In this document: positions 17,616 through 32,967 of the stretch, piece by piece
Position numbering within the stretch: the first letter of the stretch is position 1
Layout: the number at the start of each line of letters is the position of its first letter
Source: a virus
Lineage: Duplodnaviria; Caudoviricetes
Reading direction: 5' to 3' (one strand)
DNA length: 64,000 nucleotides
Virus record (IMG/VR): IMGVR_UViG_3300037067_021615
Span: 1-64,000 of that record
Position numbers and translations under genes: made by a program
The notes under the pieces: model-generated
Told to the model about the DNA's origin: nothing
Seen by the model: the letters and a program-made list of their open reading frames with translations, nothing else
Databases searched by the model: none

Positions 17616-18428
17616 TTATAATGTAATATCTGTTGATTTAGCAAATTTAATCCCAATAGATTTAGCTTCGTCATAAATTGGTTGAGCTAAATCATCAAAA
17701 GTAATTCCAGGTGCTGCTTCGCCTTTAACTGATGACATACAATCTTCAAGGACAATAAATTTTTGTGCTAAAGTTTTATCAAACTTCATTGATTGCTTAA
17801 GTGAAGTGGCAACACAATGCGTTTTTGCTTCTCCAGCAAAATATATGTCATCATAATCATTAAGAATTTTGATGAGTCTATCATTAAGTTGAGTGCCATC
17901 TTCTCCAGGAATAGGAATATTTGCCTGAAATACTCCAAAATGCTCTGTTAAAGGATGAATTCCCTTTTTTACGATTTTATGAAACAAGCATTGTGAAGTT
18001 GACCAATCAATAACTGATTTCATAAGAGGAGCGTAAATAGCTGCACCTTCACTACCATCAATGCAATGTACTGGCCATATACAATGAGGAAACTCCTTTT
18101 GTGCTTCAAGGTCTTCTAAATATTTTAAAGCAGCTTTGGGGTAGAATCTTGGTGTCCATTTTCCATCTTTTACATCTTTTGAAGAGATTATAGTATATAT
18201 AGGAGGAAAATTTCCGTCTTTATCTTCCCAAAATGGAGGATGACTTATATCAATAACCATATGACTATCTTGGGTTAGACCAATATATTCAATTTTTGAC
18301 TTATTTCTGTCAATAAAATTGGCAAGTCTATTCATATCTTTATCTGCACCTGGAACCGAAAGGGCGCCAGTTGCTACACAGAAATCATTCTGTGCATCAA
18401 TAATAAGTAATGCATTTTTTCTTTTCAT
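17616..18428 (-). CDS. pncA: nicotinamidase / isochorismatase-family hydrolase
   Basis: IDAQNDFC, DSH, WPVHC, KG, GEAKTHCV catalytic motifs. Confidence 0.85.
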   Translation of the reverse strand: MKRKNALLIIDAQNDFCVATGALSVPGADKDMNRLANFIDRNKSKIEYIGLTQDSHMVIDISHPPFWEDKDGNFPPIYTIISSKDVKDGKWTPRFYPKAALKYLEDLEAQKEFPHCIWPVHCIDGSEGAAIYAPLMKSVIDWSTSQCLFHKIVKKGIHPLTEHFGVFQANIPIPGEDGTQLNDRLIKILNDYDDIYFAGEAKTHCVATSLKQSMKFDKTLAQKFIVLEDCMSSVKGEAAPGITFDDLAQPIYDEAKSIGIKFAKSTDITL

Positions 18429-18497
18429 AAAAAATTTTTTAAATTTATAATTTCATATTATTATACGTTAAAAAAGATGAAATGTTATAATTTTTTA

Positions 18498-18836
18498 TTA
18501 TTTATTTTCATCTTTAACAGATAAAGATAAATCAATTAATTCATCATCATCATTGATAGCGCCAATTTCATATAAAATATCTGTTTTCCAGCCAGCTTTT
18601 TTATATCTTTTCTCAAGTTCTCTGACCATTATTTCCACACGATGTTTTGAATTATTACCAAATACGGTTTTTTCTTTTATTGAAATAAGAATGGGACTAG
18701 TTCCATCAAAATCATCAGTGATTTTTTTATCTATTTCACTTTCCACCATTCCGATGGTAGATAATTCGTCTGCAGTAAGAGGAGCATTTCTCTTTTTTGT
18801 TAATTCTTGTTTTGCTTTTTTTAATGTAATTGCCAT
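18498..18836 (-). CDS. hypothetical protein; start MAITLKK
   Basis: Internal ATG avoids overlap with the upstream gene. Confidence 0.6.
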   Translation of the reverse strand: MAITLKKAKQELTKKRNAPLTADELSTIGMVESEIDKKITDDFDGTSPILISIKEKTVFGNNSKHRVEIMVRELEKRYKKAGWKTDILYEIGAINDDDELIDLSLSVKDENK

Positions 18837-18852
18837 AATAAAATATTTAAGT

Positions 18853-19068
18853 TTAAAAAAATTTATTTTCGCTAGTTGCAATTCCCACAATGTAAATTAA
18901 TAAGGTTATTGCTATAATTGTTATTGCTAAAGGTAAGCAACTCCAAGTACTAATTACTAAAATTGCAGCAGTTGTTACACTCACACTTGATTTGTTAAGT
19001 TCAGCTAAGTTATAAAGAAAGGATAAAATATATCCAATGCCAGCAATAATTGCAATTGTTAATATCAT
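18853..19068 (-). CDS. small membrane protein
   Basis: Two hydrophobic helices; class II promoter upstream. Confidence 0.6.
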   Translation of the reverse strand: MILTIAIIAGIGYILSFLYNLAELNKSSVSVTTAAILVISTWSCLPLAITIIAITLLIYIVGIATSENKFF

Positions 19069-19119
19069 TTTCGTATATTTTTGACTATATACGAAAAAAA
19101 GAAAAAAAAGTTACATTAT

Positions 19120-19908
19120 TTAGGAAGAAGTTTTTTTAATAAATTGTTCATTATTTAATAATTGGTTCCAACGAAGTATACACATTCTAACATAATTATA
19201 GCAATCAAATCCATATGTTCCGAGAGAATATCCGTCATTTGCCTCTATAAGCATTGTTTCACCTTTATCGGTAATTCCAAAATCAATTCCATAAGATATT
19301 GGTGCTGACTTATATGCTTTTATAGTTTCATCAATAAAATTAAAATCTGGAAAAATTCTATGATTTCCACTGTACTTTCTACAATCATAGATATGACCGT
19401 CTATAATAAACGTTCTATATTCAGAAACAAACTTAACAATATCAGATGACATAATTTCCATTTCCAAATCATCTGTGTGTAAAAATCTGAACATTTCTAA
19501 TTCATCAGCACTGCAAACTATTGTACCTGTAAATAATTTTGCGATTCTTGGTTTAACAAAAATAGGAAATTTATTTTCTTCCATAAGAGATTTTATAGTA
19601 CCTATTCTTATAGTTCTTTTTGTGTATGGATAAAGTTCTTTTGGAACATCAAGCGGTTTTGGAAGAATTTCCAATCCAGCTATTTGCATCCCACGTAATA
19701 CAGCATTAATTCCTCCTAAAACAATTGTATTTTTAGTAATTTCTAATAAACCAATATCATCATAATCAAATTTTTTTGTTGGTATTTTAAGAAATTCACA
19801 TCCCATAAATGCGTTGTAGGTTGCTTCATTTGCAAAATCACCTTTATACATTTGTATATAAGCTTTTTCAATATTATTAATTTGTCTTAATTCGTCTGTA
19901 AATATCAT
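19120..19908 (-). CDS. ATP-grasp protein (R2K/DUF4343-like)
   Basis: FVKP, SEYRTF, IDFG, IEANDGYSLG. Confidence 0.8.
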   Translation of the reverse strand: MIFTDELRQINNIEKAYIQMYKGDFANEATYNAFMGCEFLKIPTKKFDYDDIGLLEITKNTIVLGGINAVLRGMQIAGLEILPKPLDVPKELYPYTKRTIRIGTIKSLMEENKFPIFVKPRIAKLFTGTIVCSADELEMFRFLHTDDLEMEIMSSDIVKFVSEYRTFIIDGHIYDCRKYSGNHRIFPDFNFIDETIKAYKSAPISYGIDFGITDKGETMLIEANDGYSLGTYGFDCYNYVRMCILRWNQLLNNEQFIKKTSS

Positions 19909-19909
19909 A

Positions 19910-20788
19910 TTATTTCTTCTTTATACATTTTGTACATCCTGACTCTGCACGTCTTGTCCTATTGTCAATTCTTCGTTCATATCTTGACCCACATAATGGG
20001 CAAATCCAAAATGCTTTTTCTTTTAAAGCATGTGGAACTTTATCTGCTGAAATACCATTATTTAATTCATCCCATTCTTTAATTAAATTAGGAGTCTTGT
20101 CAGCTATACTAACAAATTTATGTTTACGCATATTTTTTATTTTCATTTGTAAATTAGTACCAGAAGAAAATTCCATCCCAGTTGGTAAAACTTTAAAATC
20201 TAAATCAATAAATTGTATAGCTTTTTTGGGCTCAATAAATATATCTATTGTTTTAGTTGTACCCATTTCAACATTTGTTTCATAAGTATCTACAATTTTT
20301 ATTTTATTTATTTCCCCACATATTGGGAAAGAAATTATTTCTAATTTGTATTTATTGTTAAAAATATTTTCCTTAGATGCTAAACAAGCATAAATTTTTT
20401 TTGGTTTTATTCCAAGTGATTCACAAATTTGTTTTACTGAAATAAAAATTTTTACTTCATCTGGATTTTTGATATTTGTTAATTTTATAATTAATGGTTT
20501 ATTATAGCCATATTTTTCGAATCCGCTTGGGGGATGTGGAGGTCCATTTATTGTTAATAATTCTTTATCTATATTTTTTACAGTTAATTTTGGTACCTCA
20601 TCTTTTTTTTGGGGTTCAACTTTATATTCCTCTTTATTCTGTAAAGATAATTCTAGTGTATTTTCTGAGACAGATATTGAAGGGCTATTTTGAGTAATAG
20701 CTGTTGTAATAAAAGATGTGGATGGTGTTTTTTCTTTTTTTCCAAATAAAAGTTCTAGGAACTTTTTTCTTATAATTTTGAATGACAT
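19910..20788 (-). CDS. protein with C-terminal treble-clef zinc ribbon (DUF4379-like)
   Basis: LIKEWD..N...WICPLCG...R.....GCTKC. Confidence 0.7.
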   Translation of the reverse strand: MSFKIIRKKFLELLFGKKEKTPSTSFITTAITQNSPSISVSENTLELSLQNKEEYKVEPQKKDEVPKLTVKNIDKELLTINGPPHPPSGFEKYGYNKPLIIKLTNIKNPDEVKIFISVKQICESLGIKPKKIYACLASKENIFNNKYKLEIISFPICGEINKIKIVDTYETNVEMGTTKTIDIFIEPKKAIQFIDLDFKVLPTGMEFSSGTNLQMKIKNMRKHKFVSIADKTPNLIKEWDELNNGISADKVPHALKEKAFWICPLCGSRYERRIDNRTRRAESGCTKCIKKK

Positions 20789-20870
20789 GGTCGCAACAAT
20801 TTATACACAAATATAATAATAATTTATTGAAGTACAAAATATATTATTATAATTGATTTATAAATATTCG

Positions 20871-21557
20871 CTATACCTTTTCTAATATTATGTTTAATAA
20901 TTTTACAGATATGTCTAATTTACCAACACAATTTGTAATTCTTTTGTTTTTGTCAACAATATAAGCAATATGTTCATTTTTTTCTTTCATTTCTGATTTA
21001 TCATTTGCTATGACAAAATCACAATTGTTTTTTATTAATGATTCATAAGCAATATCGATTAGCTCTTCTGTGGTTTTATTAACTTCAAATTTAAAACCAA
21101 TTAATTTTACTCTGGGATTCCATTTTTTAACAAATGAAATAATCTTTGGATTAACCACAATTCGGTCTCTAAGTGAATCTACAAAAGCTTGTGGGTCATT
21201 ACTTTTGAGTTTTATATTAGAAAGTTTAAACCCAAAATCAGAAACTGCCATGGAGTGAATTACAATATCAACTTGTGGCACAAGTTTTTCCATTATATCA
21301 TAGACTTCTTTTGTACTATCTACAGTAATAATTTCAATATCAGGATTCATCATTGGATAGTTGGGGTTTTTTAAATAAACTGGAAGCCTTGAATCCTTTG
21401 CACAAATATAATAAATTTTTTCGACTTCATCTCTTACATTTTCATAAAAAAATACTTGAGCTATTTGTGCCCCTAATTTCCCAGTGCTTATATTTGTTAG
21501 TACTCGAACTTCATCAATATGTTCACGGGTACCACCTGCTGTAATAAGAATTTTCAT
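20871..21557 (-). CDS. coaB: phosphopantothenate-cysteine ligase
   Basis: ITAGGTREHIDEVR..TN.STGKLG, HSMAVSDF, GFKFE, VIAND. Confidence 0.9.
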   Translation of the reverse strand: MKILITAGGTREHIDEVRVLTNISTGKLGAQIAQVFFYENVRDEVEKIYYICAKDSRLPVYLKNPNYPMMNPDIEIITVDSTKEVYDIMEKLVPQVDIVIHSMAVSDFGFKLSNIKLKSNDPQAFVDSLRDRIVVNPKIISFVKKWNPRVKLIGFKFEVNKTTEELIDIAYESLIKNNCDFVIANDKSEMKEKNEHIAYIVDKNKRITNCVGKLDISVKLLNIILEKV

Positions 21558-21832
21558 TTTAAATATCTTTTTAAATTAATTCCAACATCATTTAAAGTCT
21601 TTTTAAAATGGGTATAATTTTTAAATACTACTCTTGAATCTATAGGAGCCCTATAAAAAAATTTAATTCCCATTTCTACTTTTTCCATTATCTCAGTGGT
21701 CATTTTTTTTCTTAAAGTTTGGGGAGCTTTGTCAAAAAAACTTCCAACAAAAAGTTCTTCTATAAAAAGCAATTTTCGTTTTTCTTTGTGTTCTTTAGTA
21801 ATTATTGACCCATTATGATATATATCTGGCAT
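21554..21832 (-). CDS. hypothetical protein between coaC and coaB
   Basis: Translationally coupled ORF. Confidence 0.6.
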   Translation of the reverse strand: MPDIYHNGSIITKEHKEKRKLLFIEELFVGSFFDKAPQTLRKKMTTEIMEKVEMGIKFFYRAPIDSRVVFKNYTHFKKTLNDVGINLKRYLK

Positions 21833-21835
21833 AAT

Positions 21836-22933
21836 TTATTTTTTTCTAAACTGATAATAATACTTCATTGCTCTTATAAGAAAAGGGGTGGGATTAAGTA
21901 AACCTTCTGGTAAATCTTGACTCCAAGATTTATCAATGTTTTTATAAAATCCTGGATTTCTTAGTTCTAAATGTAGCATACTAGTTGGCCTGCCTTTATC
22001 TTTTTTGAGAACCTGAAGAACTGTCCCAAGTAAATCTCCTGATTTCACTTCGTCTCCAATTTTTAATTTTGAGTTAACCAAAATCTCTCCATAAACAACA
22101 AGTCCATCTGTTCCTTCTATAGAAATTGCGTCAGTATCATTCCACCAATCACAATTAGCTGCCACTCCAGTCCATGGTCGGATATCTTTAATAATTCCAT
22201 TTTGGACAGCATAAACAGGACTTCCAACTGGAGCATATAAATCAACCCCTCGATGTCTATCAAATCTTCTCATTGCGCCAAATGCTCCAAAATGATATTT
22301 TATAGGTATTTCAACTTCTTTTTCGAGATTTATTCTAAGAAAAGAATTTGAATCTTCTGTAATTTTGGTAGGCATTAATTCCAATGGCCATACCCATGGT
22401 TTTTTTGTATCTAATAATTCAATAATTTCTTCAACAATAGTTCTTGGGTTTGGGAGTTTCCCAATTCCAACAGCACCACAAGCAAGTTCTCCAGAAACAG
22501 GCTCTATAATATGACATCCATTATTTTCAAGTCTCTGAATATTTTCTGTACATATGTTACTTTCATACATTATTGTATTCATTGCTGGGCAAATAATTTT
22601 TGGAATACCTTTTGGTATTGCAATAAAAGTAGAAGATACAAAATCATCAGCAATTCCATGTGCAAATTTTGCAATAATATTTGCAGTTGCAGGAACGCAT
22701 ACAAAAGCGTCACAACTTTGAGCTTCTTTAATATGTGCAATTGTATTTACATCATCATCTGTGATATAATATCCGCCAGAAATGGCACCGAGAACTGTGG
22801 GGGTTATAAAATTTAAAGCGTTTTTTGTGGTAATAACATGAACTTCATAACCACTATGCTTAAAGCCACTAATTACATCTACTGCTTTATATGCAGATAT
22901 TCCACCAGAAATAGCCACTAATATAGTTTTCAT
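21836..22933 (-). CDS. coaC: phosphopantothenoylcysteine decarboxylase fused to an M23-peptidase-like domain
   Basis: N-terminal SGGISAYK, PATAN, PAMN, LACG..G.GKL; C-terminal HRGVDLYAP.GSPVYA, V..GD.LG, MLHLE, NP. Confidence 0.88.
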   Translation of the reverse strand: MKTILVAISGGISAYKAVDVISGFKHSGYEVHVITTKNALNFITPTVLGAISGGYYITDDDVNTIAHIKEAQSCDAFVCVPATANIIAKFAHGIADDFVSSTFIAIPKGIPKIICPAMNTIMYESNICTENIQRLENNGCHIIEPVSGELACGAVGIGKLPNPRTIVEEIIELLDTKKPWVWPLELMPTKITEDSNSFLRINLEKEVEIPIKYHFGAFGAMRRFDRHRGVDLYAPVGSPVYAVQNGIIKDIRPWTGVAANCDWWNDTDAISIEGTDGLVVYGEILVNSKLKIGDEVKSGDLLGTVLQVLKKDKGRPTSMLHLELRNPGFYKNIDKSWSQDLPEGLLNPTPFLIRAMKYYYQFRKK

Positions 22934-22936
22934 AAC

Positions 22937-23455: not shown

Positions 23456-23556
23456 AATTTATAAAATTTAATTTCTATTAAGGTTTACGAAAAAAAAATA
23501 AAAAAGTTACAAAACAAATGATTCAATTTTTCATATATTTATAAAAAATATAAAAG

Positions 23557-24096
23557 ATGATTACTGAAAATTATAAAATTAGACTACAAGAACTTGCTGG
23601 TATAAATAAAAGCAAAGAGGTTCTATTTTTGGTTGGATTGCCTGGCTCTGGAAAATCAACATTTATAAAAGCATTAAAAAGAAAAAATCCCGATAAAGAA
23701 TATATTATTGCTTCTTTTGATGATGTGACAGAAAAATTGGGTACCAAATTAGGGATGGGATATAATGATGCATATGCTCATTTTAATTTTGCAGCTGATA
23801 TTATTCCTATATATAACAAAACGATAGAAAAGGCAATAAAAAAAGGCAAAAACGTAATAATAGATGATACAAATCTAAAAAAGCGTGATAGAGAAGAAAC
23901 TCTAAAAAAATTTCCAAATGATTATAAAAAAATCGCAATAGTTTTTAATGTTCAGCCAGATGAATTAAAAAAAAGGTTAGACAAGAGAAAAAAACAAACG
24001 GGGAAATATATTCCTGATGAAGTAATAGAGAGAATGAGAAATTATTATGCACCACCATCAAAAGAAGAAGGATTTGATAAAATAATAAAGTTATAA
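23557..24096 (+). CDS. P-loop kinase (AAA_33 / polynucleotide-kinase-like)
   Basis: GLPGSGKST, IIDDTN, R...R; N-terminal RLQELAGI. Confidence 0.85.
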   Translation: MITENYKIRLQELAGINKSKEVLFLVGLPGSGKSTFIKALKRKNPDKEYIIASFDDVTEKLGTKLGMGYNDAYAHFNFAADIIPIYNKTIEKAIKKGKNVIIDDTNLKKRDREETLKKFPNDYKKIAIVFNVQPDELKKRLDKRKKQTGKYIPDEVIERMRNYYAPPSKEEGFDKIIKL

Positions 24097-24202: not shown

Positions 24203-24661
24203 TTAAGAACCATAGCGTGAGAATGCCACATATATATTTCTATCTTGTGTGATATTTGATAATGTATAAACAGTTGTTGCAGATGGTGTTGATATCGTCA
24301 TTGAGGTTCCATTAATAGTATAAGCAGAAAGATAATAATTAACTTGTGGATATACAGAAAATGACAAATTCATTGCTTCAGCAACTGATACAGACCCCCC
24401 ACTTAAAGATGTAGTTCCACCAGTTGCGCCTTTGGTTGCTGAAACCACAAAATAAAATTCTGGAGTTGGGTCTGGGTCTATTCCAATATGCGCTTGTTCA
24501 TGAATCATTGCTTCTTCATGAGAATTCAAGTTAAGTTGAGATAAACTAGTTACTTCTGGGAGATTAATGGTATCATATGCTGCAAGCCATTTTTTGTAAG
24601 AGAATCCATTTATTTTAACATGAATCCATTTTCCTTTTGCTGATTTATTTTGTAGTTTCAT
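24203..24661 (-). CDS. putative virion protein with Ig-like C-terminal domain
   Basis: Thr/Ser-rich beta-strand C-terminus (YTLSNITQDRNIYVAF); late motif upstream. Confidence 0.55.
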   Translation of the reverse strand: MKLQNKSAKGKWIHVKINGFSYKKWLAAYDTINLPEVTSLSQLNLNSHEEAMIHEQAHIGIDPDPTPEFYFVVSATKGATGGTTSLSGGSVSVAEAMNLSFSVYPQVNYYLSAYTINGTSMTISTPSATTVYTLSNITQDRNIYVAFSRYGS

Positions 24662-24715
24662 AATTTTAATATTTTTTTATAAATAGTATTTTTTTTTCAA
24701 AATTCTTATGGTATT

Positions 24716-25219
24716 TTAAAAATTTTTAGACTTATTGTTTGATACTCCATCTTTTCTACTTTCTCCAGGAGGAATATAGGTTAGCTCTTGATTTATATTA
24801 TCATTACGTAATTCAAATTCTTCTTGTGATTCTTTTCCAAAATTAGCAGTTTTAGGAGATGGTTTAATTTCTCTATCTAGATTTTTTTTTGCAGCTTCTG
24901 TAGACCCGTATATTCCGCAGCTCTCTTCTATGCCTTCTGACTCATATATATTTGTTCTAGTTGCTGCATTTGGATTATTAAAATCAGGAACTTCAAAATT
25001 ATTTTTTATTTCTTCTTCTTTTTCTTCTTCAGGTTCATTTTTATCTAAATAGGATTGAATTTGATTATAATAATTTATAGAATCATCAATTCCTTTTCTA
25101 GGAATTTTAAATAATGCCATATTAGTAGCAATTTGTTCAGCAGCAGAAGATTGAAAGCCTAAGCTTTCAAATAGATTATTTATTTCTTCTCGTATTAACT
25201 TTCTTAATTTATTTTTCAT
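24716..25219 (-). CDS. late-class acidic protein
   Basis: LRKLIREEINNLFES leader. Confidence 0.65.
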   Translation of the reverse strand: MKNKLRKLIREEINNLFESLGFQSSAAEQIATNMALFKIPRKGIDDSINYYNQIQSYLDKNEPEEEKEEEIKNNFEVPDFNNPNAATRTNIYESEGIEESCGIYGSTEAAKKNLDREIKPSPKTANFGKESQEEFELRNDNINQELTYIPPGESRKDGVSNNKSKNF

Positions 25220-25257: not shown

Positions 25258-25701
25258 TTAAGAAACTCCAGCTAATTTTTTCATCTTATCTTTATCTTCT
25301 TGATTATTCAGAAACTTGGCAATATCCGATAAACTATCAAAAACTTTTGCCCCATTTTTTTTAACTAATTCTTTAACTTGATTAAGTGATTTCATTTCCG
25401 ATTTGTCAAATTCTTTATTATCGTCTTTTTCAAGAACACAAAATATTGTTGTTTCTGGTCTTAAATTTGAATCTTGTACCACTTCGGCAATTGAATAAAC
25501 TCCTTTCATTAGGGGAGTTATTACATAAAGAACAAATTTGGCTGTTTTTCTTTGTTCTACTTCTTTTTTTTGAGCTTCTTCATTCCAATCTTTAACTACT
25601 GGATTAAAATATGGTACTTTGAGGTCTTTAATTAATCTTTCTCTCCACGTGGAATCATTACATGTACCACCTAAAAATATGTTTGGATTATCTTTTTTCA
25701 T
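25258..25701 (-). CDS. nucleoside 2-deoxyribosyltransferase-like (TIR/NDT fold) protein
   Basis: IFLGGT..STWR, YFNP...DW, YSIAE. Confidence 0.75.
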   Translation of the reverse strand: MKKDNPNIFLGGTCNDSTWRERLIKDLKVPYFNPVVKDWNEEAQKKEVEQRKTAKFVLYVITPLMKGVYSIAEVVQDSNLRPETTIFCVLEKDDNKEFDKSEMKSLNQVKELVKKNGAKVFDSLSDIAKFLNNQEDKDKMKKLAGVS

Positions 25702-25776
25702 AATTTTTATTTAAAAAATAGCAAAATGAATTTGAATTATAAATGCTTTTTTATTATATTTATAATAAAATATATT

Positions 25777-26322
25777 ATGAAAAAAATTATTGTGGTTTTA
25801 GGGCTACCTTGCTCAGGAAAAGATACTCATGCTAAATTATTAGCGAATAAGCTAAATTATAAATATTGTTCTTCAAATGATATTATTGCAGAAGAAATAA
25901 AAAATAAAACAAAAATTGGTTTGATTATGGAAAAATACTTAAATTCTAAAACATCAGCTCCAGATGAATATTTAATTATGCTAATAAAAGAAATAATTAT
26001 TAATCTTAAAGAAGATGGAATTATATTTAACAATTTTCCACAAACAGTTAATCAAGCAAAAGCATTAGACTCTTTTCTTTTTACAAAGAAAACAAATAGA
26101 CCTATTCCAATATTTTTAGAAGCAGATTTAGTTACTATATTAAACCGTGTCACTGAAAAATTAGAAAGTAAAGAAGTTGATTCTTTTAAAAACACTATGA
26201 ATTTTTATGAAAAAAAAACAAAACCTATAATCGATTATTACACAGCAATTATGTCAAAATTTGATACTTCTAAAGATAGTATAGATAAAATTAATGAAGA
26301 AATAATGCAAAAAATAAAATAA
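25777..26322 (+). CDS. adk: adenylate-kinase-like NMP kinase (divergent); start MKKIIVV
   Basis: GLPCSGKDT, PDE, FPQTVNQA. Confidence 0.75.
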   Translation: MKKIIVVLGLPCSGKDTHAKLLANKLNYKYCSSNDIIAEEIKNKTKIGLIMEKYLNSKTSAPDEYLIMLIKEIIINLKEDGIIFNNFPQTVNQAKALDSFLFTKKTNRPIPIFLEADLVTILNRVTEKLESKEVDSFKNTMNFYEKKTKPIIDYYTAIMSKFDTSKDSIDKINEEIMQKIK

Positions 26323-26328: not shown

Positions 26329-26829
26329 ATGTTTATTAACTTAATTGTTGCAAATTCGCAAAATGGTGTAATTGGAAAAGATGGAAATATGCCATGGAAT
26401 ATTCCACAAGAATTGACAAGATTTCAACAACTAACAAATGGCTCTATTGTTATAATGGGAAGAAGAACATATGAATCAATTGGAAAACCTCTAAAAAATC
26501 GTTACAATTTTATTATATCGCAAAGTAATTTATGTATTAAAGGTATCTATCAATTTAGCAATATTGAAGATGCTCTTAAGTATGCGAAAGAAAAATTGCC
26601 TAATTATGCTATTTTTGTAATAGGGGGAGCAAGTATTTACAAACAGTTTTTAGAGCAAAATTTAATAGATAGAATATACCAAACTATCATAAAAAAAGAT
26701 ATAGAAGGGGATGCAGTCTTTTCTTTTAATAAAGAAAACTGGAACATCGTAGGAGATATTCCAGTTAAATTGTTAAGTTATAAAGAACTTATTGATTGTT
26801 CTTATATAACTTGGGAAAGAAAAAATTAA
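26329..26829 (+). CDS. folA: dihydrofolate reductase
   Basis: NGVIGKDGNMPW, IMGRRTYESIG.PL.NR, IGGA.IY, EGD. Confidence 0.95.
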   Translation: MFINLIVANSQNGVIGKDGNMPWNIPQELTRFQQLTNGSIVIMGRRTYESIGKPLKNRYNFIISQSNLCIKGIYQFSNIEDALKYAKEKLPNYAIFVIGGASIYKQFLEQNLIDRIYQTIIKKDIEGDAVFSFNKENWNIVGDIPVKLLSYKELIDCSYITWERKN

Positions 26830-27644
26830 ATAATATTATCAATTTTGCATATAGGTGGCATTTGCATTTTATGCTCATTTGCAAAATGTCTTGTTTTATA
26901 AATCAATAGAACCTCTTGCTCTCGTTGAGATAATGTGCTAAGGTCTTCTGGTGAGTAATCAAAGTGTCGTGGATTATTTTCGACATACTCCATCGCTTGC
27001 TCTAATTCGTCATAGGTGGCTTTTATCTGGTCCTCGTCTCCACGTCCGTCATCCCAAAGGCCATCCGTTGGTTTGGCTATAACAATTTCCTCTAAAACAC
27101 CCATGTATTTGCCCAATTTACGAACTTCACTTTTCATAAGGTCCCCTATTGGTGATATATCAACCTGAGAGTCCCCTCCCTTTGTACAAAAACCAATTCC
27201 AAAGTCTTCGACCTTGTTCCCAGTTCCAAGTACAAGACAATTCTTAATAGAAGCATAATAATATAATGCAACCATTCTTAATCTTGACCTAGTGTTTGCT
27301 TCTGCTAAGTTCTGTTTTTCTAAATTATCATGCTTTTCTACATCAAATAGAAAGCAATTAAATGTGTCTGTTAAATCGCAATTTATTGTTTCTACATTAG
27401 AAAAATTATCCATCAACCACTTGATGTGATTACTTGCTCTATTTACTTCATCCGATTTCTGACGAATCGGCATCTGAATTGTATATAATTTCAATCCAGT
27501 TTTTGCGGCCAGAGTGGAAACAACGGCTGAATCAACTCCTCCAGATATTCCTATAACAAATCCTTGCATTTTAATGTTTTCTGCATGTTTTTTTAGCCAA
27601 GCAACAATATGTGCTTCAACTTTTGAATAATCTAAATTTTTCAT
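26826..27644 (-). CDS. nadE: NH3-dependent NAD+ synthetase; start MKNLDYS
   Basis: GISGGVDSAVV, NTRSRLRM, GTGNKVE, TKGGD, KSEV, PTDGLW. Confidence 0.95.
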   Translation of the reverse strand: MKNLDYSKVEAHIVAWLKKHAENIKMQGFVIGISGGVDSAVVSTLAAKTGLKLYTIQMPIRQKSDEVNRASNHIKWLMDNFSNVETINCDLTDTFNCFLFDVEKHDNLEKQNLAEANTRSRLRMVALYYYASIKNCLVLGTGNKVEDFGIGFCTKGGDSQVDISPIGDLMKSEVRKLGKYMGVLEEIVIAKPTDGLWDDGRGDEDQIKATYDELEQAMEYVENNPRHFDYSPEDLSTLSQREQEVLLIYKTRHFANEHKMQMPPICKIDNII

Positions 27645-27648
27645 ATAA

Positions 27649-27996
27649 TTAGTTTTTATTTTTTGAAATGTTTTTACCATCAATTCTTCGCTGAATAACA
27701 AATTTTCGTTTACCTTGGCAAAATTTTGCCCATTGTTTTTCGCCTAGTCGCAATTTTAAGTCTTCGGGAGTTATAAATCCATGCCATCCAATAAAATTAT
27801 GTTTATTATATTCTTGTTCTCTGCCACTACTCCAAGTTATATATCCTAAATCTTTGAATTTATATTTTTCGTATTCAGATTTGGTTTCTTCTGAAACATC
27901 ATTTCGCATTGGCTTTACTTCAACAATTATTATTATGTTTTGTAAAGGTTTTTTGTTTCTCTCAACTCCTATATTTGCATAATATTTATTTTTCAT
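27649..27996 (-). CDS. hypothetical protein; start MKNKYYA
   Basis: ORF directly upstream of nadE. Confidence 0.6.
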   Translation of the reverse strand: MKNKYYANIGVERNKKPLQNIIIIVEVKPMRNDVSEETKSEYEKYKFKDLGYITWSSGREQEYNKHNFIGWHGFITPEDLKLRLGEKQWAKFCQGKRKFVIQRRIDGKNISKNKN

Positions 27997-28177
27997 ATTT
28001 TCCTCCCAATACAATTCTACTTTCATTTATATCAAGCTCATAATCAAAATATGTTTTTCCATGAAACATCAAGAATTCGCCACCATGTTTACTATTATTA
28101 TCCCATTTGGCTATTTCCCATTCATTTTTTATTGAATATCTTATTTTAACCCAATAATAACCATTTTCTCTAATCAT
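27986..28177 (-). CDS. small hypothetical protein
   Basis: First gene after class II promoter 28199-28226. Confidence 0.6.
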   Translation of the reverse strand: MIRENGYYWVKIRYSIKNEWEIAKWDNNSKHGGEFLMFHGKTYFDYELDINESRIVLGGKYEK

Positions 28178-28315
28178 AGGTTTATAAGTTTTTTATATTA
28201 TACGTCGTTTGTTTAAATTTGTTACAGAAAACCATATTCTATATGTTAAAACTATGATAATTAAAGTAATAAAATATGGGCTAAAGTACGATTATCTGCA
28301 ACCGTTATAAGCCAT

Positions 28316-28459
28316 TTACTTTCCAAATTGTTGCTTACCTTTATTTTTTTTATTTTTCTTCCACGATTTTAACATACCTTCTTCATGTTTCTTCATGTGT
28401 TCATTAAAAGTAAGCAACCCACGTTTTATTCTATTTTCTTCTTTCTTTTTCTTATTCAT
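28316..28459 (-). CDS. 47-aa Lys-rich protein (MNKKKKEENRIK...), not in ORF track
   Basis: Manual translation; bracketed by GTTATAAGCC / GGCTTATAAC. Confidence 0.5.
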   Translation of the reverse strand: MNKKKKEENRIKRGLLTFNEHMKKHEEGMLKSWKKNKKNKGKQQFGK

Positions 28460-28483
28460 ATTAGTATCATTTTAATTAAAAAC

Positions 28484-28540
28484 GGCTTATAACAAAGTGT
28501 AAAAAACATTAAAACATTTTTTTACATTCAACCGCTATAG
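28484..28540 (+). other. attC-like site (integron-cassette type)
   Basis: RYYYAAC-like TTATAAC, inner inverted repeat TGTAAAAAA/TTTTTTACA, degenerate core GCTATAG. Confidence 0.5.
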
Positions 28541-28597
28541 TCAATTAAATGAGTTCACAGTAGAATCCAGTCATTGTATCTAATAAGCCGATTGGGA

Positions 28598-29443: not shown

Positions 29444-29506
29444 AGTTTCTATTTTTAAGTTAATATTTAATAGGATATGTAAGTGTATATTTCGAGTTCA
29501 TTATGT

Positions 29507-29782
29507 TCAATTAAATTGTTGTTTTGAATTTTTGTAATCATTATATTCTTCAATATCAGAAATTTTCTCATTTTTCCAATAGCCACCGAAAATATAACTT
29601 TTGATACCGTCTCCAATTTCCCATGATTGAAGAATATATGTAGTTTCCAACCAACTCCACCATGTGGTTTGTGATGTATATTGGTATATTCTAAGTGGTA
29701 ACAAAGTAAACTTTTTAATTATTCTAAAATGTTCCCATTTTTGGAACTTGCCATCGTTTCCTTTATGTAATTTTTTTTTCAT
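29507..29782 (-). CDS. hypothetical protein downstream of the rRNA-mimic hairpin
   Basis: ORF track. Confidence 0.6.
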   Translation of the reverse strand: MKKKLHKGNDGKFQKWEHFRIIKKFTLLPLRIYQYTSQTTWWSWLETTYILQSWEIGDGIKSYIFGGYWKNEKISDIEEYNDYKNSKQQFN

Positions 29783-29797
29783 AATTCTTTTTTATTA

Positions 29798-29868
29798 AGA
29801 CATTGAGGCGAACTGTTGCGTACTCTTTAAATGAATGGCTGCTTCCAAACCTACATACCTCAATGTCT
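29798..29868 (-). ncRNA. structured RNA mimicking the 23S rRNA GTPase-associated centre (helices 43/44, uL11 site)
   Basis: AGACATTGAGG-TATGTAGGTTTGGAAGCAGCCATTCATTTAAAGAGTACGCAACAGTTCG-CCTCAATGTCT: perfect 11-bp stem closing a 49-nt segment matching recalled 23S positions about 1056-1103. Confidence 0.8.
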
Positions 29869-29939
29869 ATTCAATCAATATTTTACATTCCATTTAAGTT
29901 CGTATTCAATGGTTTATATTTACAACTGTTAGCAAGTAT

Positions 29940-30272
29940 TTAATTCATCTTGTGGCAAAGGTCTGAACTAACATATCTTTTTTGTTCTTCTATATCATCA
30001 GTAGACCATCCATTTGTTCCAATATGAGATACTGAAAAATTATAAGAACCGTTTATTGTTATACATTTCACCCATATTAAGTTGGTACATCTTGGGTGAT
30101 TATATTTTATCATCTCAATGTCTTGTAGTAAAATATCTCTACCCCAGCTCCTTTTTAGTATATGCTCAAGAACAAAATATTCACCATCAGTAGTTATACT
30201 AAGTTTTTCAACATACTTATCTAGTTGGTTTTGTTGTGCTTTATTTATTTGTGCATAGTGTACCATAATCAT
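29940..30272 (-). CDS. hypothetical protein
   Basis: ORF track. Confidence 0.6.
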   Translation of the reverse strand: MIMVHYAQINKAQQNQLDKYVEKLSITTDGEYFVLEHILKRSWGRDILLQDIEMIKYNHPRCTNLIWVKCITINGSYNFSVSHIGTNGWSTDDIEEQKRYVSSDLCHKMN

Positions 30273-30368
30273 CCTTACTAATTGGTAATTTTTCCAATCA
30301 CTCTTTTAAATGTTTAATTTTCATATTTATTAACATTTTGTCTTTATATAATATTAGAAATAGTTTTA

Positions 30369-30830
30369 TTACTTACCATACCACAAATAGGCTGGTTTAA
30401 ATGCTGCTATTGAATAATGGTCTATTGAATGGGCTGTTTCTTGGACATGCCCCCATTCATCAACATATAGTCTCCATCCAAGTTCATTATCTCCATCATG
30501 GTCAGAATCTGCATCCCAACCTCCACATTCTACGTTTTTTGCTTCTTCAGTGTCTAACCACCTCCAAAGAATATCAATCAATTCGTTATCATCTATTTCA
30601 GTCTGTTTTCCCATTCTATCTGTAAATGGGGTAGCTTTGTACCCATCTTTAATTAACCAAGTAAGAACTAATCCTTTTTCTTTAGAATAATACCATCCTG
30701 TAACTTTTTGGGTTTGACCATATTCATTTAATAAAAGCAATTTAACAGCTATGCTTAATTGCTCTTTTGTTTTCCCATTTACATTAAAAATTTTATTGTC
30801 CATATTTAAGCTTTTAATAATTGTTTTCAC
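30369..30830 (-). CDS. hypothetical protein (Trp/Asp-rich)
   Basis: ORF track; DHDGD, GWRLY, WYGK. Confidence 0.7.
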   Translation of the reverse strand: MKTIIKSLNMDNKIFNVNGKTKEQLSIAVKLLLLNEYGQTQKVTGWYYSKEKGLVLTWLIKDGYKATPFTDRMGKQTEIDDNELIDILWRWLDTEEAKNVECGGWDADSDHDGDNELGWRLYVDEWGHVQETAHSIDHYSIAAFKPAYLWYGK

Positions 30831-30837
30831 AATAAAT

Positions 30838-31461
30838 TTATTTATTTTTAATAGTCTTTCTACTTATTTTTCTATCAAACAATCCTCTATGATGTGCTTC
30901 ATAGGCCAAAAGTTTTGTTTTTGTATCTTCAAGAGTATCCATCATACTCCTAAATTGAAGATAATTAATTTCACAAATTTCAATATTTTCATATTCTTCT
31001 TTAACTCCACCTCCAGCACCATTTATTTTATCCTTGTTTGTGGCTACTGCTAAAAAATAATGAATTTTTTCAGTTGAATATCCTGGTGTTGGATAACAAC
31101 AATAACAATATTCAACGTTTTCTTCTTTAAGGTTATATCCCACTTCCTCAAGACATTCTCTAATAAATGTCTTTTTGGGGTCTTCTCCTTTTTTATCAAT
31201 TTTTCCAGCCACTGCTTCGTAAACAAAACCATTTCTTCCTTTAGTATGAGTTGGATATCTATATTGTTTAACTAATACAACAGATTCTGTATCTATATTA
31301 TAAATTAATCCAGCGACTGCATCATGACTCGATATCTTTTGCCGTTTATAAGTTGACACTTTACCGTTTTCATTTGTATCAATAATTACGGCCTCATCAA
31401 TTTTTAGATGCCCATCATACATTCTTTTTTCTTCTTTTATTTCAATTGTTCTTTTTGACAT
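30838..31461 (-). CDS. Nudix hydrolase (ADP-ribose pyrophosphatase, NudF/NudK-like); start MSKRTIE
   Basis: Nudix box AGKID..GED....IRECLEEVG, QYRYP, PGYSTE; starts 2 nt after the pncB stop. Confidence 0.88.
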   Translation of the reverse strand: MSKRTIEIKEEKRMYDGHLKIDEAVIIDTNENGKVSTYKRQKISSHDAVAGLIYNIDTESVVLVKQYRYPTHTKGRNGFVYEAVAGKIDKKGEDPKKTFIRECLEEVGYNLKEENVEYCYCCYPTPGYSTEKIHYFLAVATNKDKINGAGGGVKEEYENIEICEINYLQFRSMMDTLEDTKTKLLAYEAHHRGLFDRKISRKTIKNK

Positions 31462-31462
31462 A

Positions 31463-32665
31463 TTATAACAATTTTTTAAGTCTCTGTTCAGTTTGCCATT
31501 TAACAAATTTAATTGTTTCTTCATCTCCCACATGTTTAGTTGGTGAATCAGATAATTTAATAGCTGGCATACCATTTATTTCAAGTAATTTGATAACAAT
31601 ATTCATTGGTTTAACTCCATCAATATCACAGGTTAAATTAGTTCCAATTCCGTAACTTTTTCTTATTTCTTTTTTGCGATATTCTTGAAGTTTAATTACT
31701 ATTTCTGGATTTAATGCATCAGAATATACAATTGTTTTTGTTGTGGGGTCAATACCTAATTTTTTATAGTGGTCAATCATTTTATCTGTAAAAACGAATG
31801 GGTCTCCACTGTCATGCCTAACCCCTGTAAAAAGATTAGCATACATAGAATCAAAGTCTTGAAGAAATGCATCAGTAGTAAAAGTATCAGTTAATGCGAT
31901 TCCTAAATTTCCATTATACGTCTTTGTCCAAAAATCCATAGCAATTTTATTTGCATGGGCATATCCATACATCGCAGCTATTCCAGACACCCATTCATGT
32001 GCATATGTACCAATTACCTTAATTCCATTATACAATGCAAGTTCTACATTGCTTGACCCAATAAAGTTTGTATGCATCAAAGAATCGCACATTATATTGA
32101 CAACTTGTATATGAACATCTTTTGATTTTGCCCTACGTGTTCCAAAGTCAACCACCTGAGCATTGTTCATATAAAATAGATTGGATTTTAAACTTGTTTT
32201 TTTAAGAACATCTTTAATATTCAATTTTTCATCACCTTGTCCAGTCATTTTGTAATATAATTCGCAAATATCTGACATTAATGTTGTTTCCCAGAGAACT
32301 GTTCTGTACCAGTACCCAGTAATTTGCAAAGACAATTTTCCTTCATATTGAATTATTCCCACTTCACTGGGGTCATATCGGTATCCTTCAAGAAAATCAA
32401 AAAAAGCTGCAGGCAAATAAGGACAAGCTTTTAAAAACTCTTTTTTTCTTTGTGGAGACAATTGTTTGTTTCTATAATTGTCAACTATTTTTCTTAACTC
32501 AACTGCAAATCCATCTGGATAAGCAGTATTATTTCTATCAATAAATTCGTATTTTACTTTTGCTTCTGGGAAGTTCTTAATAATTGCCCACATCATAGAA
32601 AATTTATACAAATCAGCCCAAAGAATCGAATCTTTGTTAATAGGTTCTGAAGATTTAAGTGTCAT
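31463..32665 (-). CDS. pncB: nicotinate phosphoribosyltransferase
   Basis: DLYKFSM, DFGTRR, GTYAHEW, LTDTF, RHDSGDP, GIGTNLT, IKLSD. Confidence 0.95.
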   Translation of the reverse strand: MTLKSSEPINKDSILWADLYKFSMMWAIIKNFPEAKVKYEFIDRNNTAYPDGFAVELRKIVDNYRNKQLSPQRKKEFLKACPYLPAAFFDFLEGYRYDPSEVGIIQYEGKLSLQITGYWYRTVLWETTLMSDICELYYKMTGQGDEKLNIKDVLKKTSLKSNLFYMNNAQVVDFGTRRAKSKDVHIQVVNIMCDSLMHTNFIGSSNVELALYNGIKVIGTYAHEWVSGIAAMYGYAHANKIAMDFWTKTYNGNLGIALTDTFTTDAFLQDFDSMYANLFTGVRHDSGDPFVFTDKMIDHYKKLGIDPTTKTIVYSDALNPEIVIKLQEYRKKEIRKSYGIGTNLTCDIDGVKPMNIVIKLLEINGMPAIKLSDSPTKHVGDEETIKFVKWQTEQRLKKLL

Positions 32666-32709
32666 AATTTAAAATTTATTTTTTAGTATTTTTTAAGTTA
32701 TACGAAAAA

Positions 32710-32967
32710 TTAATCAATATGTTCTCTTATTTCAAGAATTTTTTTTAATTGCTCTTTATAATTTTTAAATTTTTGTATAATAATACCATCTTGATTAGCT
32801 ACCTGTTCTTGTGTTAATCCACGGTAAGCTATATCATCATATATTCCTCTTGTTTCAAGAAAAGAAATATGCTTTTGAATTCTATCTTTATATGCTTTAA
32901 TTCTCTTTGTATCCCATTTTTTAACTAATGTAAGAGGTTGCAAATTTATACCATGTATTGTTTCCAT
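32710..32967 (-). CDS. hypothetical protein; start METIHG
   Basis: ATG follows the TATATTTG promoter at 32986. Confidence 0.6.
   Translation of the reverse strand: METIHGINLQPLTLVKKWDTKRIKAYKDRIQKHISFLETRGIYDDIAYRGLTQEQVANQDGIIIQKFKNYKEQLKKILEIREHID

What the first reader, a model, noticed from the sequence alone, without database searches (positions are those of the whole stretch)
17616..32726. Deamidating (Preiss-Handler-type) NAD+ rebuilding set, distinct from NARP1/NARP2
Seen: pncA, pncB (DLYK/DFGTRR nicotinate type, not DSYK NAMPT type) coupled to an ADP-ribose-type Nudix, and nadE. They sit in three separate operons, each headed by the class II promoter. Established: SIR2/TIR defences cleave NAD+ to nicotinamide and ADP-ribose; phage NARP1 (Adps+Namat) and NARP2 (Nampt+Nmnat) rebuild it by amidated routes. 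Inference: a third route, Nam to NA to NaMN to NaAD to NAD+, with Nudix recycling ADPR to ribose-5-P and AMP. NadD and PRPP synthetase are not in this window and would come from elsewhere in the genome or from the host.
Basis: partly seen in the sequence, partly recalled or inferred. Interest (0 to 1): 0.85.

Follow-up and report, generated by a model that had tools for sequence, protein, structure and literature searches.

The report
Huge-phage nicotinamide-to-NAD salvage genes
A fragment of a very large T4-like phage really carries three of the four enzymes that recycle nicotinamide into NAD+ through nicotinate, plus an ADP-ribose-type Nudix hydrolase, but it lacks the adenylyltransferase step, similar phage gene sets were reported in 2024, and a role against NAD-destroying bacterial immunity is untested.

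Summary
pncA (17616-18428), pncB (31463-32665), a YffH/NudK-type Nudix (30838-31461, starting 1 nt after the pncB stop) and an NH3-type nadE (26826-27644) are intact. They lie in three transcription units, each behind a conserved T-rich+CGTATAW upstream motif.

The route Nam>NA>NaMN>NaAD>NAD+ is coherent, and the genes co-occur widely. Among 53 PncB-encoding IMG/VR records, NadE was found in 40 and PncA in at least 30; NadD was found in 24 of the 50 records searched for it. All four enzymes occur in 11 of those 50.

Three points limit the claim:
- This clade (window plus three relatives, two of them 91-100% complete) has no NadD, Prs, Nampt/Namat or PnuC, so it must borrow host NadD and Prs.
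- Phage Preiss-Handler clusters were described in 2024 ('NAD-jumbo phages'), and a counter-defence role has already been suggested in print, without experiments.
- pncA is the first gene of a tight pncA-vWA-PP2C-kinase operon. That cassette recurs in 69 of 79 viral loci with this long-form PncA, often with pncB/nadE inside it. I found it in no paper.

This scan has noted the same theme in at least 96 other genomes. Verdict: a new, host-dependent member of a known kind; modest interest.

The parts
32698..32704 (-). Promoter-like motif (T-run + CGTATAA) about 35 nt upstream of pncB
   Evidence: AATTTTTCGTATAA is conserved upstream of pncB in G0, G1 and G2. Enrichment upstream of ORF starts is shown.
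31463..32665 (-). pncB, nicotinate phosphoribosyltransferase (400 aa)
   Evidence: TIGR01514 394 bits and NF003704 418 bits, both above cut-off. Pfam NAPRTase plus NAPRTase_N. DLYK, DFGTRR and H223 are invariant. It is the only NAPRTase-family gene in the genome.
30838..31461 (-). Nudix hydrolase of the YffH/AdpP-NudK (NDP-sugar/ADP-ribose) type, 207 aa, translationally coupled to pncB
   Evidence: The ATG lies 1 nt after the pncB stop. TIGR00052 scores 72.9 bits and NudK 75.9 bits. PDB 1viu/3o52 match at E 1e-19 over the full length. The box G86..E93..R101-E102..E105-E106 is intact. It is adjacent to pncB in G1 and G3.
28198..28204 (-). Promoter-like motif (CGTATAA) heading the unit that ends in nadE
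27649..28177 (-). Two small ORFs of unknown function (63 aa and 125 aa) upstream of nadE in the same unit
   Evidence: No Pfam or PHROG match. Absent from the relatives.
26826..27644 (-). nadE, NH3-dependent NAD+ synthetase of the short type (272 aa)
   Evidence: TIGR00552 174.5 bits, above cut-off. PF02540. All PDB hits are NH3-dependent NadE; the best is 3FIU, Francisella NadE. Syntenic in G1, G2 and G3.
18461..18467 (-). Promoter-like motif (CGTATAA) upstream of pncA
   Evidence: A variant, CTCGTATAG, lies upstream of pncA in G1 after a terminator-like hairpin.
17616..18428 (-). pncA, long-form nicotinamidase (270 aa), first gene of a five-gene operon
   Evidence: PDB nicotinamidases are the only sequence hits. 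D11, D54, H56, H121, K155 and C205 are invariant. The AF2 model has pLDDT 91.9, and its top 11 folds are nicotinamidases. It is 53-56% identical to Bacteroidota nicotinamidases.
14161..17596 (-). vWA (16880-17596), PP2C phosphatase (16095-16877), Ser/Thr kinase (14438-16111) and a 91-aa ORF, co-transcribed with pncA (TerY-P-like triad)
   Evidence: Pfam VWA_2, PP2C_2 and Pkinase. Gaps or overlaps between genes are 20 nt or less. The same order occurs in G1 and LR756500. The cassette is present in 69 of 79 viral loci with long-form PncA.
25726..26322 (+). Adenylate kinase, a conserved neighbour of nadE (possible AMP recycling; link inferred only)
   Evidence: PF00406 88 bits. Adjacent to nadE in G1 and G2.

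Best explanation
This is a host-dependent, phage-encoded Preiss-Handler (deamidating) NAD+ salvage set in an uncultured huge T4-like phage. The host is probably a member of the Bacteroidota.

The proposed steps are:
1. PncA hydrolyses nicotinamide to nicotinate and NH3.
2. PncB joins nicotinate to PRPP to give NaMN.
3. The host's NadD adenylylates NaMN to NaAD. The phage has no such enzyme.
4. The phage's NH3-dependent NadE amidates NaAD to NAD+.

A YffH/NudK-type Nudix, translated just behind PncB, most likely cleaves ADP-ribose to AMP and ribose-5-phosphate. Host Prs can turn the latter back into PRPP.

The net effect is to keep or raise NAD+ in the infected cell from the breakdown products of NAD+.

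Shown here: gene identities, intact catalytic residues, coupling, synteny, co-occurrence, and the absence of NadD and Prs.

Inferred: substrates, flux, dependence on the host, and the selective purpose (general cofactor supply and/or resistance to NAD+-depleting defences).
For: Gene identities rest.

pncB-Nudix-nadE is syntenic at 64-81% identity in three relatives, and contiguous in G1.

Census of 53 PncB-bearing viral records (NadD was searched in 50): NadE in 40/53, PncA in at least 30/53, NadD in 24/50, YffH-type Nudix in 12/53. All four enzymes occur in 11/50, and in some records (e.g. G021, G027) they lie in a tight cluster.

GenBank phage scaffold MT835470 carries pncA-x-pncB-nadE-x-x-nadD-Nudix.

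NadD and Prs were not found in G000-G003. G001 is 91% and G002 100% complete by CheckV, and PF01467 was detected in 5 of 5 other huge phages as a control.

No other NAD pathway is carried: no Nampt/Namat, PnuC or NrtR.

The three units share a conserved upstream motif.

Published precedent exists for phage Preiss-Handler clusters (PMC11662467).
Against: No experiment exists for any phage deamidating set.

PncA is below the curated HMM cut-offs, and its strongest genomic link is to a vWA-PP2C-kinase cassette rather than to pncB.

pncA is absent from the complete relative G2, so the Nam-entry step is dispensable in the clade.

The Nudix substrate is not decidable from sequence; the best solved relative hydrolyses GDP-mannose.

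The closest solved NadE is the Francisella NaMN-preferring NMN synthetase, so the order of amidation and adenylylation is open.

The window's own genome is only about 29% complete.

A very divergent adenylyltransferase could escape PF01467 and TIGR00482.
Confidence: 0.7

Rival explanations
1. Dedicated counter-defence. The set was selected specifically to rebuild NAD+ after SIR2/TIR/DSR-type NADases cleave it, as a functional analogue of NARP1-3.
For: PncA takes nicotinamide and the Nudix takes ADP-ribose, which are exactly the two products of NADase defences. NARP1-3 show that phages do use NAD+ reconstitution against such defences. A Nudix recurs next to phage NAD salvage genes in independent lineages: G015, G018, G046-48 and MT835470. 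PncA is linked to a TerY-P-like triad, a module type otherwise found in conflict systems (PMC11090510).
Against: The route costs more ATP and needs two host enzymes (NadD, Prs) that act late and could be limiting. pncA is missing from the complete relative G2. The genes lie among general metabolic genes: CoaB, CoaC, Adk, DHFR, ThyA. No host or host-defence information is available. No experiment was found in the literature searched.
Confidence: 0.35
2. General cofactor supply (auxiliary metabolism). The phage boosts NAD+ synthesis from available nicotinate/nicotinamide to sustain a long, large-genome infection, independently of host immunity, alongside its CoA and nucleotide genes.
For: The genes are neighbours of CoaB, CoaC-M23, Adk, DHFR, a nucleoside deoxyribosyltransferase-like gene and ThyA, in the same region and under the same motif. 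NadE alone is a common gene of T4-like cyanophages and pelagiphages. Li et al. 2024 argue for complementation of host pathways.
Against: No phage NAD+ consumers were found: no LigA, ADP-ribosyltransferase or Macro domain. This reading does not explain the tight Nudix coupling or the kinase cassette.
Confidence: 0.45
3. Amidation at the mononucleotide level. The phage NadE is an NMN synthetase (NaMN>NMN), as in Francisella, and a host NMN adenylyltransferase (NadR, NadM or a promiscuous NadD) finishes NAD+.
For: The best solved relative is Francisella NadE, PDB 3FIU, at 124.5 bits against 94 bits for the next hit. That enzyme is described as NaMN-specific (PMC12143786). The absence of phage NadD is compatible with this reading.
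Against: The whole short NadE subfamily (Campylobacter, Pyrococcus, Helicobacter) also matches, and most of its members are NaAD-specific. Identity is moderate, and the position aligned to Ft Tyr149, near the substrate channel, differs. An adenylyltransferase is still required.
Confidence: 0.15
4. PncA belongs functionally to the vWA-PP2C-kinase cassette (a signalling or conflict module) and is only incidentally in the same genome as pncB/nadE. The 'set' is then two unrelated modules.
For: The pncA-vWA-PP2C-STK operon is tight here and conserved in G1, G3, LR756500 and 69 of 79 viral loci. The whole cassette, including pncA, is absent from G2, while pncB-Nudix-nadE stays.
Against: In at least 15 of the 79 loci pncB lies within 7 kb, and in several it sits inside the cassette, with or without nadE: L200, L210, L153, L169, L176. 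This argues for a shared function. The nicotinamidase active site is fully kept.
Confidence: 0.25
5. The Nudix does not act on free ADP-ribose. It hydrolyses another NDP-sugar (for example GDP-mannose), NAD(H)/NaAD, or ADPR-derived immune signals.
For: Scores to NudK (GDP-mannose) and to the ADPR families are about equal. It is below the TIGR00052 cut-off in this genome.
Against: It is conserved directly behind pncB. Nudix genes recur next to NAD salvage genes in other phages. A proline lies 15-17 residues after the Nudix box, as I recall for ADPR pyrophosphatases (from memory, not tested).
Confidence: 0.25

Closest known systems
'NAD-jumbo phages' with Preiss-Handler gene clusters (pncB-nadD-nadE, e.g. 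Kuafu_71 and Kuafu_19; Li et al., Microbiome 2024, PMC11662467)
   Same: These are huge uncultured phages, many with Bacteroidota hosts, that carry pncB and nadE (pncA is also mentioned). They are interpreted as NAD+ synthesis by the deamidated route, from bioinformatics only.
   Different: That class is defined by a complete pathway that includes nadD. This clade lacks nadD, has a Nudix coupled to pncB, and has pncA in a kinase/phosphatase/vWA operon. Its genes are spread over three units across 15 kb.
NARP2 (Nampt + Nmnat) and NARP1 (Adps + Namat) of Osterman et al. 2024 (bioRxiv 10.1101/2024.02.11.579819), and NARP3 (PnuC + NadR, PMC13464706)
   Same: All are phage-encoded routes that regenerate NAD+. 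NARP1 and NARP2 start from nicotinamide and/or ADP-ribose.
   Different: Those routes are amidated, autonomous two-gene systems with experimental proof. Here the route is deamidated, needs host NadD and Prs, and has no experimental proof. No Prs-like, Nampt-like, Nmnat, NadR or PnuC gene is present.
Complete phage deamidating clusters, e.g. GenBank MT835470 (human-gut phage scaffold) and IMG/VR records G021 and G027
   Same: They carry PncA, PncB and NadE, and in MT835470 a Nudix as well.
   Different: They also encode NadD, use the short canonical PncA (about 190-210 aa), and are compact clusters.
Bacterial salvage pathway I (PncA-PncB-NadD-NadE), and bacterial pairings of NAD salvage with ADP-ribose pyrophosphatase (NadM-Nudix fusions) or ADPR-sensing NrtR regulators
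   Same: The enzymology is the same, as is the theme of coupling ADP-ribose handling to NAD salvage. This rests on established knowledge recalled from the literature; NCBIfam models for NadM-Nudix and NrtR exist.
   Different: The phage Nudix is a stand-alone catalytic YffH/NudK type. It is not fused to an adenylyltransferase and is not an NrtR.
TerY-P triad (vWA + PP2C + Ser/Thr kinase; Anantharaman et al. 2012, as summarised in PMC11090510)
   Same: The three domain types are the same and lie in one tight operon.
   Different: Here the triad is phage-borne and led by a nicotinamidase, often with pncB/nadE embedded. I found no paper describing this combination.

Membership tests
Nicotinamidase PncA (isochorismatase-like fold) | Catalytic triad Asp-Lys-Cys | tested here: met
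   D11, K155 and C205 align to the triads of yeast Pnc1 and M. tuberculosis PncA. They are invariant in 6 phage and 14 mixed homologues.
Nicotinamidase PncA (isochorismatase-like fold) | Metal site Asp-x-His ... His (in WPxHC), which separates nicotinamidases from other isochorismatase-like hydrolases | tested here: met
   D54, H56 and H121 are invariant.
Nicotinamidase PncA (isochorismatase-like fold) | Fold | tested here: met
   The AF2 model has pLDDT 91.9. Foldseek PDB ranks 1-11 are all nicotinamidases, with E from 1e-13 to 1e-9.
Nicotinamidase PncA (isochorismatase-like fold) | Score above the curated family cut-off | tested here: not met
   PF00857 scores 22.8 against 27, and NF008623 scores 50.1 against 174. 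The cause is an insertion of about 45 residues and a C-terminal extension shared with Bacteroidota long-form enzymes that sources name nicotinamidase.
Nicotinamidase PncA (isochorismatase-like fold) | Nicotinamide deamidase activity | not testable with these tools
   An enzyme assay is needed.
Nicotinate phosphoribosyltransferase PncB | Equivalog HMM above cut-off, and both domains present | tested here: met
   TIGR01514 scores 394 against 269.55, and NF003704 scores 418 against 379. NAPRTase_N plus NAPRTase are both present.
Nicotinate phosphoribosyltransferase PncB | Nicotinate-type rather than Nampt-type motifs | tested here: met
DLYK and DFGTRR are read in the sequence and are invariant in 7 phage PncBs.
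NH3-dependent NAD+ synthetase NadE | NadE domain above cut-off, without a glutaminase (CN-hydrolase) domain | tested here: met
   TIGR00552 scores 174.5 against 63.65. The protein is 272 aa with one domain.
NH3-dependent NAD+ synthetase NadE | Preference for NaAD over NaMN | not testable with these tools
   The best PDB relative is the NaMN-preferring Francisella enzyme 3FIU.
ADP-ribose pyrophosphatase-type Nudix (YffH/AdpP family, TIGR00052) | Intact Nudix box (REx2EE) | tested here: met
   G86..E93..R101-E102-C-L-E105-E106-V-G-Y.
ADP-ribose pyrophosphatase-type Nudix (YffH/AdpP family, TIGR00052) | Family score above cut-off | tested here: inconclusive
   The window protein scores 72.9-73.3 against 79.55. 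Its orthologues in G1 and G2 score 87.7 and 82.4.
ADP-ribose pyrophosphatase-type Nudix (YffH/AdpP family, TIGR00052) | ADP-ribose as preferred substrate | not testable with these tools
   NudK (GDP-mannose) and ADPRases score alike.
Complete phage Preiss-Handler pathway ('NAD-jumbo phage' sense) | Phage-encoded NadD (NaMN adenylyltransferase) | tested here: not met
   PF01467 was absent from G000, G001 (91% complete) and G002 (100%), and TIGR00482 was absent from G003. The control found PF01467 in 5 of 5 other huge phages.
NARP1 | Prs-like Adps and Nampt-like Namat | tested here: not met
   TIGR01251 was absent from G000-G002. There is only one NAPRTase-family gene, and it is a canonical PncB.
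NARP2 | Nampt and Nmnat | tested here: not met
NARP3 | PnuC transporter and NadR-like enzyme | tested here: not met
   PF04973 is absent. No PF01467 domain is present.
NrtR (ADPR-responsive Nudix-like repressor) | Nudix-like domain plus C-terminal winged helix; match to NF050029 | tested here: not met
   The window Nudix has no NF050029 hit, and none was found in G000-G003. The protein ends right after the Nudix fold.

The most novel reading that the evidence does not exclude
The long-form nicotinamidase, the vWA protein, the PP2C phosphatase and the Ser/Thr kinase form one conserved huge-phage system. This system, often with PncB and NadE embedded, couples NAD+ salvage to a phosphorylation switch. 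It might, for example, sense NAD+ breakdown or switch host or phage targets when nicotinamide or ADP-ribose appears. Such a system has not been described and would be a new kind of regulated counter-defence or takeover module.
Probability: 0.3. Interest if true: 0.65.

Novelty: new member of a known kind. Interest (0 to 1): 0.3.

Why it matters
NAD+ depletion is a major bacterial anti-phage strategy, and three phage NAD+ reconstitution pathways have been proven. A deamidating route would be a fourth, and it is widespread: 437 IMG/VR contigs encode a PncB relative. But it is already in the literature as a bioinformatic observation. What this locus adds is a natural 'minimal' version that lacks NadD and Prs. 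That shows which steps phages find worth carrying: entry from nicotinamide/nicotinate, final amidation and ADP-ribose handling. The locus also shows a tight, recurrent link between the nicotinamidase and a kinase/phosphatase/vWA cassette that could be tested directly.

Tried and rejected
- **No close isolate.** Megablast of 7 kb against 50,697 phage records found no match.
- **NrtR reading of the Nudix.** Rejected: no NF050029 match and no C-terminal DNA-binding part.
- **Namat-like 'nicotinate-ADPR transferase' bypassing NadD.** Rejected: PncB is canonical and above the equivalog cut-off, and no Prs-like Adps exists.
- **Salvage to feed the phage's own NAD+ consumers.** No LigA, ADP-ribosyltransferase (PF03496) or Macro domain was found.
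- **Sigma-70 consensus scan.** Uninformative in this AT-rich DNA: 112 sites against 127 expected.
- **Small ORFs between the Nudix and nadE, and around the set.** No Pfam or PHROG match.
- **Closest cellular PncB by pattern scan.** Only 34-38% identical hits from unrelated phyla, which says nothing about the host.
- **Bacterial genomic context of the long-form PncA.** A metagenome scan served as a proxy. 23 of 36 loci with enough flank carry the vWA gene, while loci on long, probably bacterial contigs (for example the 1.28-Mb contig L245) lack it.
- **Two calls failed on size limits** and were re-sent corrected.

Full report
**What the DNA is.** The window is the first 64 kb of a 102,661-bp linear IMG/VR virus record with 27% G+C. 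CheckV rates it about 29% complete, so it is a fragment of a phage of roughly 350 kb. Three close relatives exist in IMG/VR:
- G001: 290,886 bp, 91% complete.
- G002: 372,283 bp, 100% complete.
- G003: 186,855 bp, 57% complete.

G001 and G002 encode T4 gp23-type capsid proteins (PF07068, about 205 bits). These are therefore huge T4-like phages. No isolate in GenBank is close at the DNA level.

**pncB.** The gene (31463-32665) is a canonical nicotinate phosphoribosyltransferase. It scores 394 bits on TIGR01514 (cut-off 269.55) and 418 bits on NF003704 (cut-off 379). They are invariant among seven phage PncBs. It is the only NAPRTase-family gene in G000-G002 (G003 adds only a 12-bit sub-threshold match).

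**Nudix.** The listed ORF starts too early. An ATG at 31461 lies 1 nt after the pncB stop, in frame, and the family matches begin there. This gives a 207-aa protein with an intact REx2EE box. It matches E. coli NudK/YffH over its full length (E 1e-19) and then ADP-ribose pyrophosphatases. It misses the TIGR00052 cut-off narrowly (72.9 against 79.55), while its orthologues in G001 and G002 pass. It is a catalytic NDP-sugar/ADP-ribose-type Nudix, and the exact substrate cannot be read from sequence. It is not an NrtR repressor.

**nadE.** This is a short, single-domain, NH3-dependent NAD+ synthetase (TIGR00552 174.5 against 63.65). It most likely starts at ATG 27644, 4 nt after the stop of the preceding 125-aa ORF.

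**pncA.** The gene (17616-18428) is divergent and scores below the curated cut-offs. Three lines of evidence still identify it as a nicotinamidase:
- Its only solved sequence relatives are nicotinamidases.
- The catalytic Asp11, Lys155 and Cys205 and the metal ligands Asp54, His56 and His121 are invariant in six phage and fourteen mixed homologues.
- A confident model (pLDDT 91.9) matches only nicotinamidases in the first eleven PDB ranks.

The 270-aa 'long form' is also the form found in Bacteroidota. Those proteins are 53-56% identical and are named nicotinamidase by their sources. This hints at a Bacteroidota host or gene donor.

**Transcription units.** A motif of a T-run followed by CGTATA(A/T) lies 25-45 nt upstream of the first gene of each unit, at 18467, 28204 and 32704. 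Five or so other intergenic sites in the window also carry it. The heptamer lies 15-60 nt upstream of an ORF start as follows:

| Genome | Occurrences upstream of an ORF start |
|---|---|
| This genome | 8 of 22 |
| G001 | 22 of 87 |
| G002 | 18 of 69 |
| Background | 3.5-4.5% (p from 4e-7 to 3e-11) |

AATTTTTCGTATAA is conserved upstream of pncB in three genomes. In G002 a reverse-strand insertion separates pncB from the Nudix, and there the Nudix has acquired its own copy of the motif. Its timing is unknown.

The units are:
- pncB-Nudix, followed by small unknown ORFs.
- 63 aa-125 aa-nadE.
- pncA-vWA-PP2C-kinase-91 aa.

In G001 the order is simply pncB-Nudix-nadE. The dispersed state here therefore comes from insertions.

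**What is missing.** The following were not found:
- No PF01467 adenylyltransferase (NadD/NadM/NadR) in G000, G001 or G002, and no TIGR00482 in G003. The same search found such genes in five of five other huge phages.
- No PRPP synthetase or Adps-like gene.
- No PnuC.
- No Nampt or Namat.
- No NAD-dependent ligase, ADP-ribosyltransferase or Macro domain.

The set depends on host NadD and Prs. It is none of NARP1, NARP2 or NARP3.

**Co-occurrence across phages.** An alignment-based scan found 437 IMG/VR contigs with a PncB relative. I searched 53 records: the window's own record, G001 and G002, and 50 of the 80 best loci kept by the scan. The results were:

| Gene | Records with the gene |
|---|---|
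| NadE | 40 of 53 |
| PncA | at least 30 of 53 (an undercount, because the long form is often missed) |
| NadD | 24 of the 50 records searched for it |
| YffH-type Nudix | 12 of 53 |

Eleven records have all four enzymes. In some (e.g. G021 and G027) they form one tight cluster. GenBank scaffold MT835470 from human faeces has pncA-x-pncB-nadE-x-x-nadD-Nudix. The uncultured huge phages LR756500, LR756501 and LR756511 each carry two or three of the genes pncA, pncB and nadE, and LR745208 carries pncA and nadE. All four also carry PF01467 genes. The refutation criterion 'the genes do not co-occur across related phages' is therefore not met. The deamidating set is a recurrent phage module.

pncA is the first gene of a tight operon with three other genes:
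- a vWA protein (16880-17596);
- a PP2C phosphatase (16095-16877);
- a Ser/Thr kinase (14438-16111).

A note from this scan on the same window (e1-5887350) gave me this lead, and I tested it. The evidence is:
- The same order is present in G001 and G003, and in LR756500 at 38-55% identity.
- Of the 79 best IMG/VR loci with a long-form PncA (188 in all), 69 have the vWA gene and 67 have the kinase within 7 kb.
- In several loci pncB, with or without nadE, sits inside the cassette: L200, L210, L153, L169, L176.
- In G002 the whole cassette is absent, including pncA, while pncB-Nudix-nadE remains.
- In a metagenome scan, 23 of 36 loci with enough flank carry the cassette. Loci on long, probably bacterial contigs do not.

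The triad resembles the TerY-P module. That module is thought to be a phosphorylation switch and is found in conflict systems (PMC11090510). I found no paper on a nicotinamidase-led version.

**Mechanism.** The best-supported reading is a host-dependent Preiss-Handler salvage:
1. PncA converts nicotinamide to nicotinate and releases NH3.
2. PncB makes NaMN from nicotinate and PRPP.
3. Host NadD makes NaAD.
4. Phage NadE makes NAD+ and consumes NH3.

The Nudix most likely turns ADP-ribose into AMP and ribose-5-phosphate for host Prs. The neighbouring adenylate kinase may recycle AMP. Both of these last points are inference.

One open point concerns the order of steps. The closest solved NadE is the Francisella enzyme 3FIU, which prefers NaMN (PMC12143786). 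Amidation could therefore precede adenylylation.

The purpose is not settled. Resistance to NADase defences is plausible. General cofactor supply is at least as well supported by the neighbourhood of CoaB, CoaC-M23, Adk, DHFR and ThyA.

**Novelty.** Li et al. 2024 (PMC11662467) described 174 'NAD-jumbo phages' with salvage or Preiss-Handler pathways, including pncB-nadD-nadE clusters and Bacteroidota hosts. A 2026 phage paper suggests that pncB/nadD/nadE may counter NAD+ depletion (PMC13384950). NARP3 is PnuC+NadR. My searches found no experimental work on a deamidating phage route. This scan has already noted the same theme in at least 96 other genomes, including NadD-less sets and the kinase cassette. 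This locus is thus a new, incomplete member of a known kind. The cassette link is the part least covered by the literature.

Noticed in passing
window 14161-18428 (-); also L136-L214: A nicotinamidase-led vWA-PP2C-Ser/Thr kinase cassette (TerY-P-like) is conserved in 69 of 79 viral loci with long-form PncA, across G+C of 27-67%. pncB/nadE are sometimes embedded in it. It appears to be absent from the probably bacterial contexts examined. I found no paper describing it.
   Followed up: partly
window 20871-22933 (-): The CoA biosynthesis genes are split. CoaB (PF04127) is a separate gene, and CoaC (the flavoprotein) is fused to a peptidase M23 domain. Both are conserved at 68-79% identity in G001 and G002.
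   Followed up: partly
L002 (G002) about 285870-286910: A reverse-strand gene of about 1 kb is inserted between pncB and the Nudix in the complete relative. The Nudix then has its own CGTATAA motif, an example of promoter gain after an insertion.
   Followed up: partly
window 19120-20788 (-): An R2K-clade ATP-grasp protein (PF18299, 136 bits) lies next to a protein with treble-clef zinc-finger (DUF4379) and NUMOD-like endonuclease domains. The latter has three copies in G002 and is likely a mobile homing endonuclease.
   Followed up: no
window 23557-24096 (+), 34135-35529 (+), 37082-38845 (+): A P-loop kinase of the polynucleotide-kinase type (AAA_33), a CCA-adding tRNA nucleotidyltransferase, and a large protein with an RNA-ligase-like part. 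Together these may form an RNA repair set.
   Followed up: no
window 25258-25701 (-): A nucleoside 2-deoxyribosyltransferase-like protein (PF15891) is 85% conserved in G001 and G002. It is followed by two conserved ORFs of unknown function at 24203-25219.
   Followed up: no
window 4220-5449 (+): A transposase-like gene (phrog_506, E 3e-110) lies on the strand opposite to its neighbours. It may be an insertion element inside the phage genome.
   Followed up: no
window 40229-41434 (-): A thymidylate synthase of 401 aa matches a 335-position profile from end to end, so it carries a sizeable insertion.
   Followed up: no
window 61804-63978 (-): One 724-aa protein matches terminase-large-subunit profiles in its N-terminal 250 residues and DNA helicase profiles in the rest.
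   Followed up: no
window 14130-14150 (-): The unit after the pncA operon is preceded by TTTTTGTATAACTT. This is a TGTATAA variant of the CGTATAA motif.
   Followed up: no
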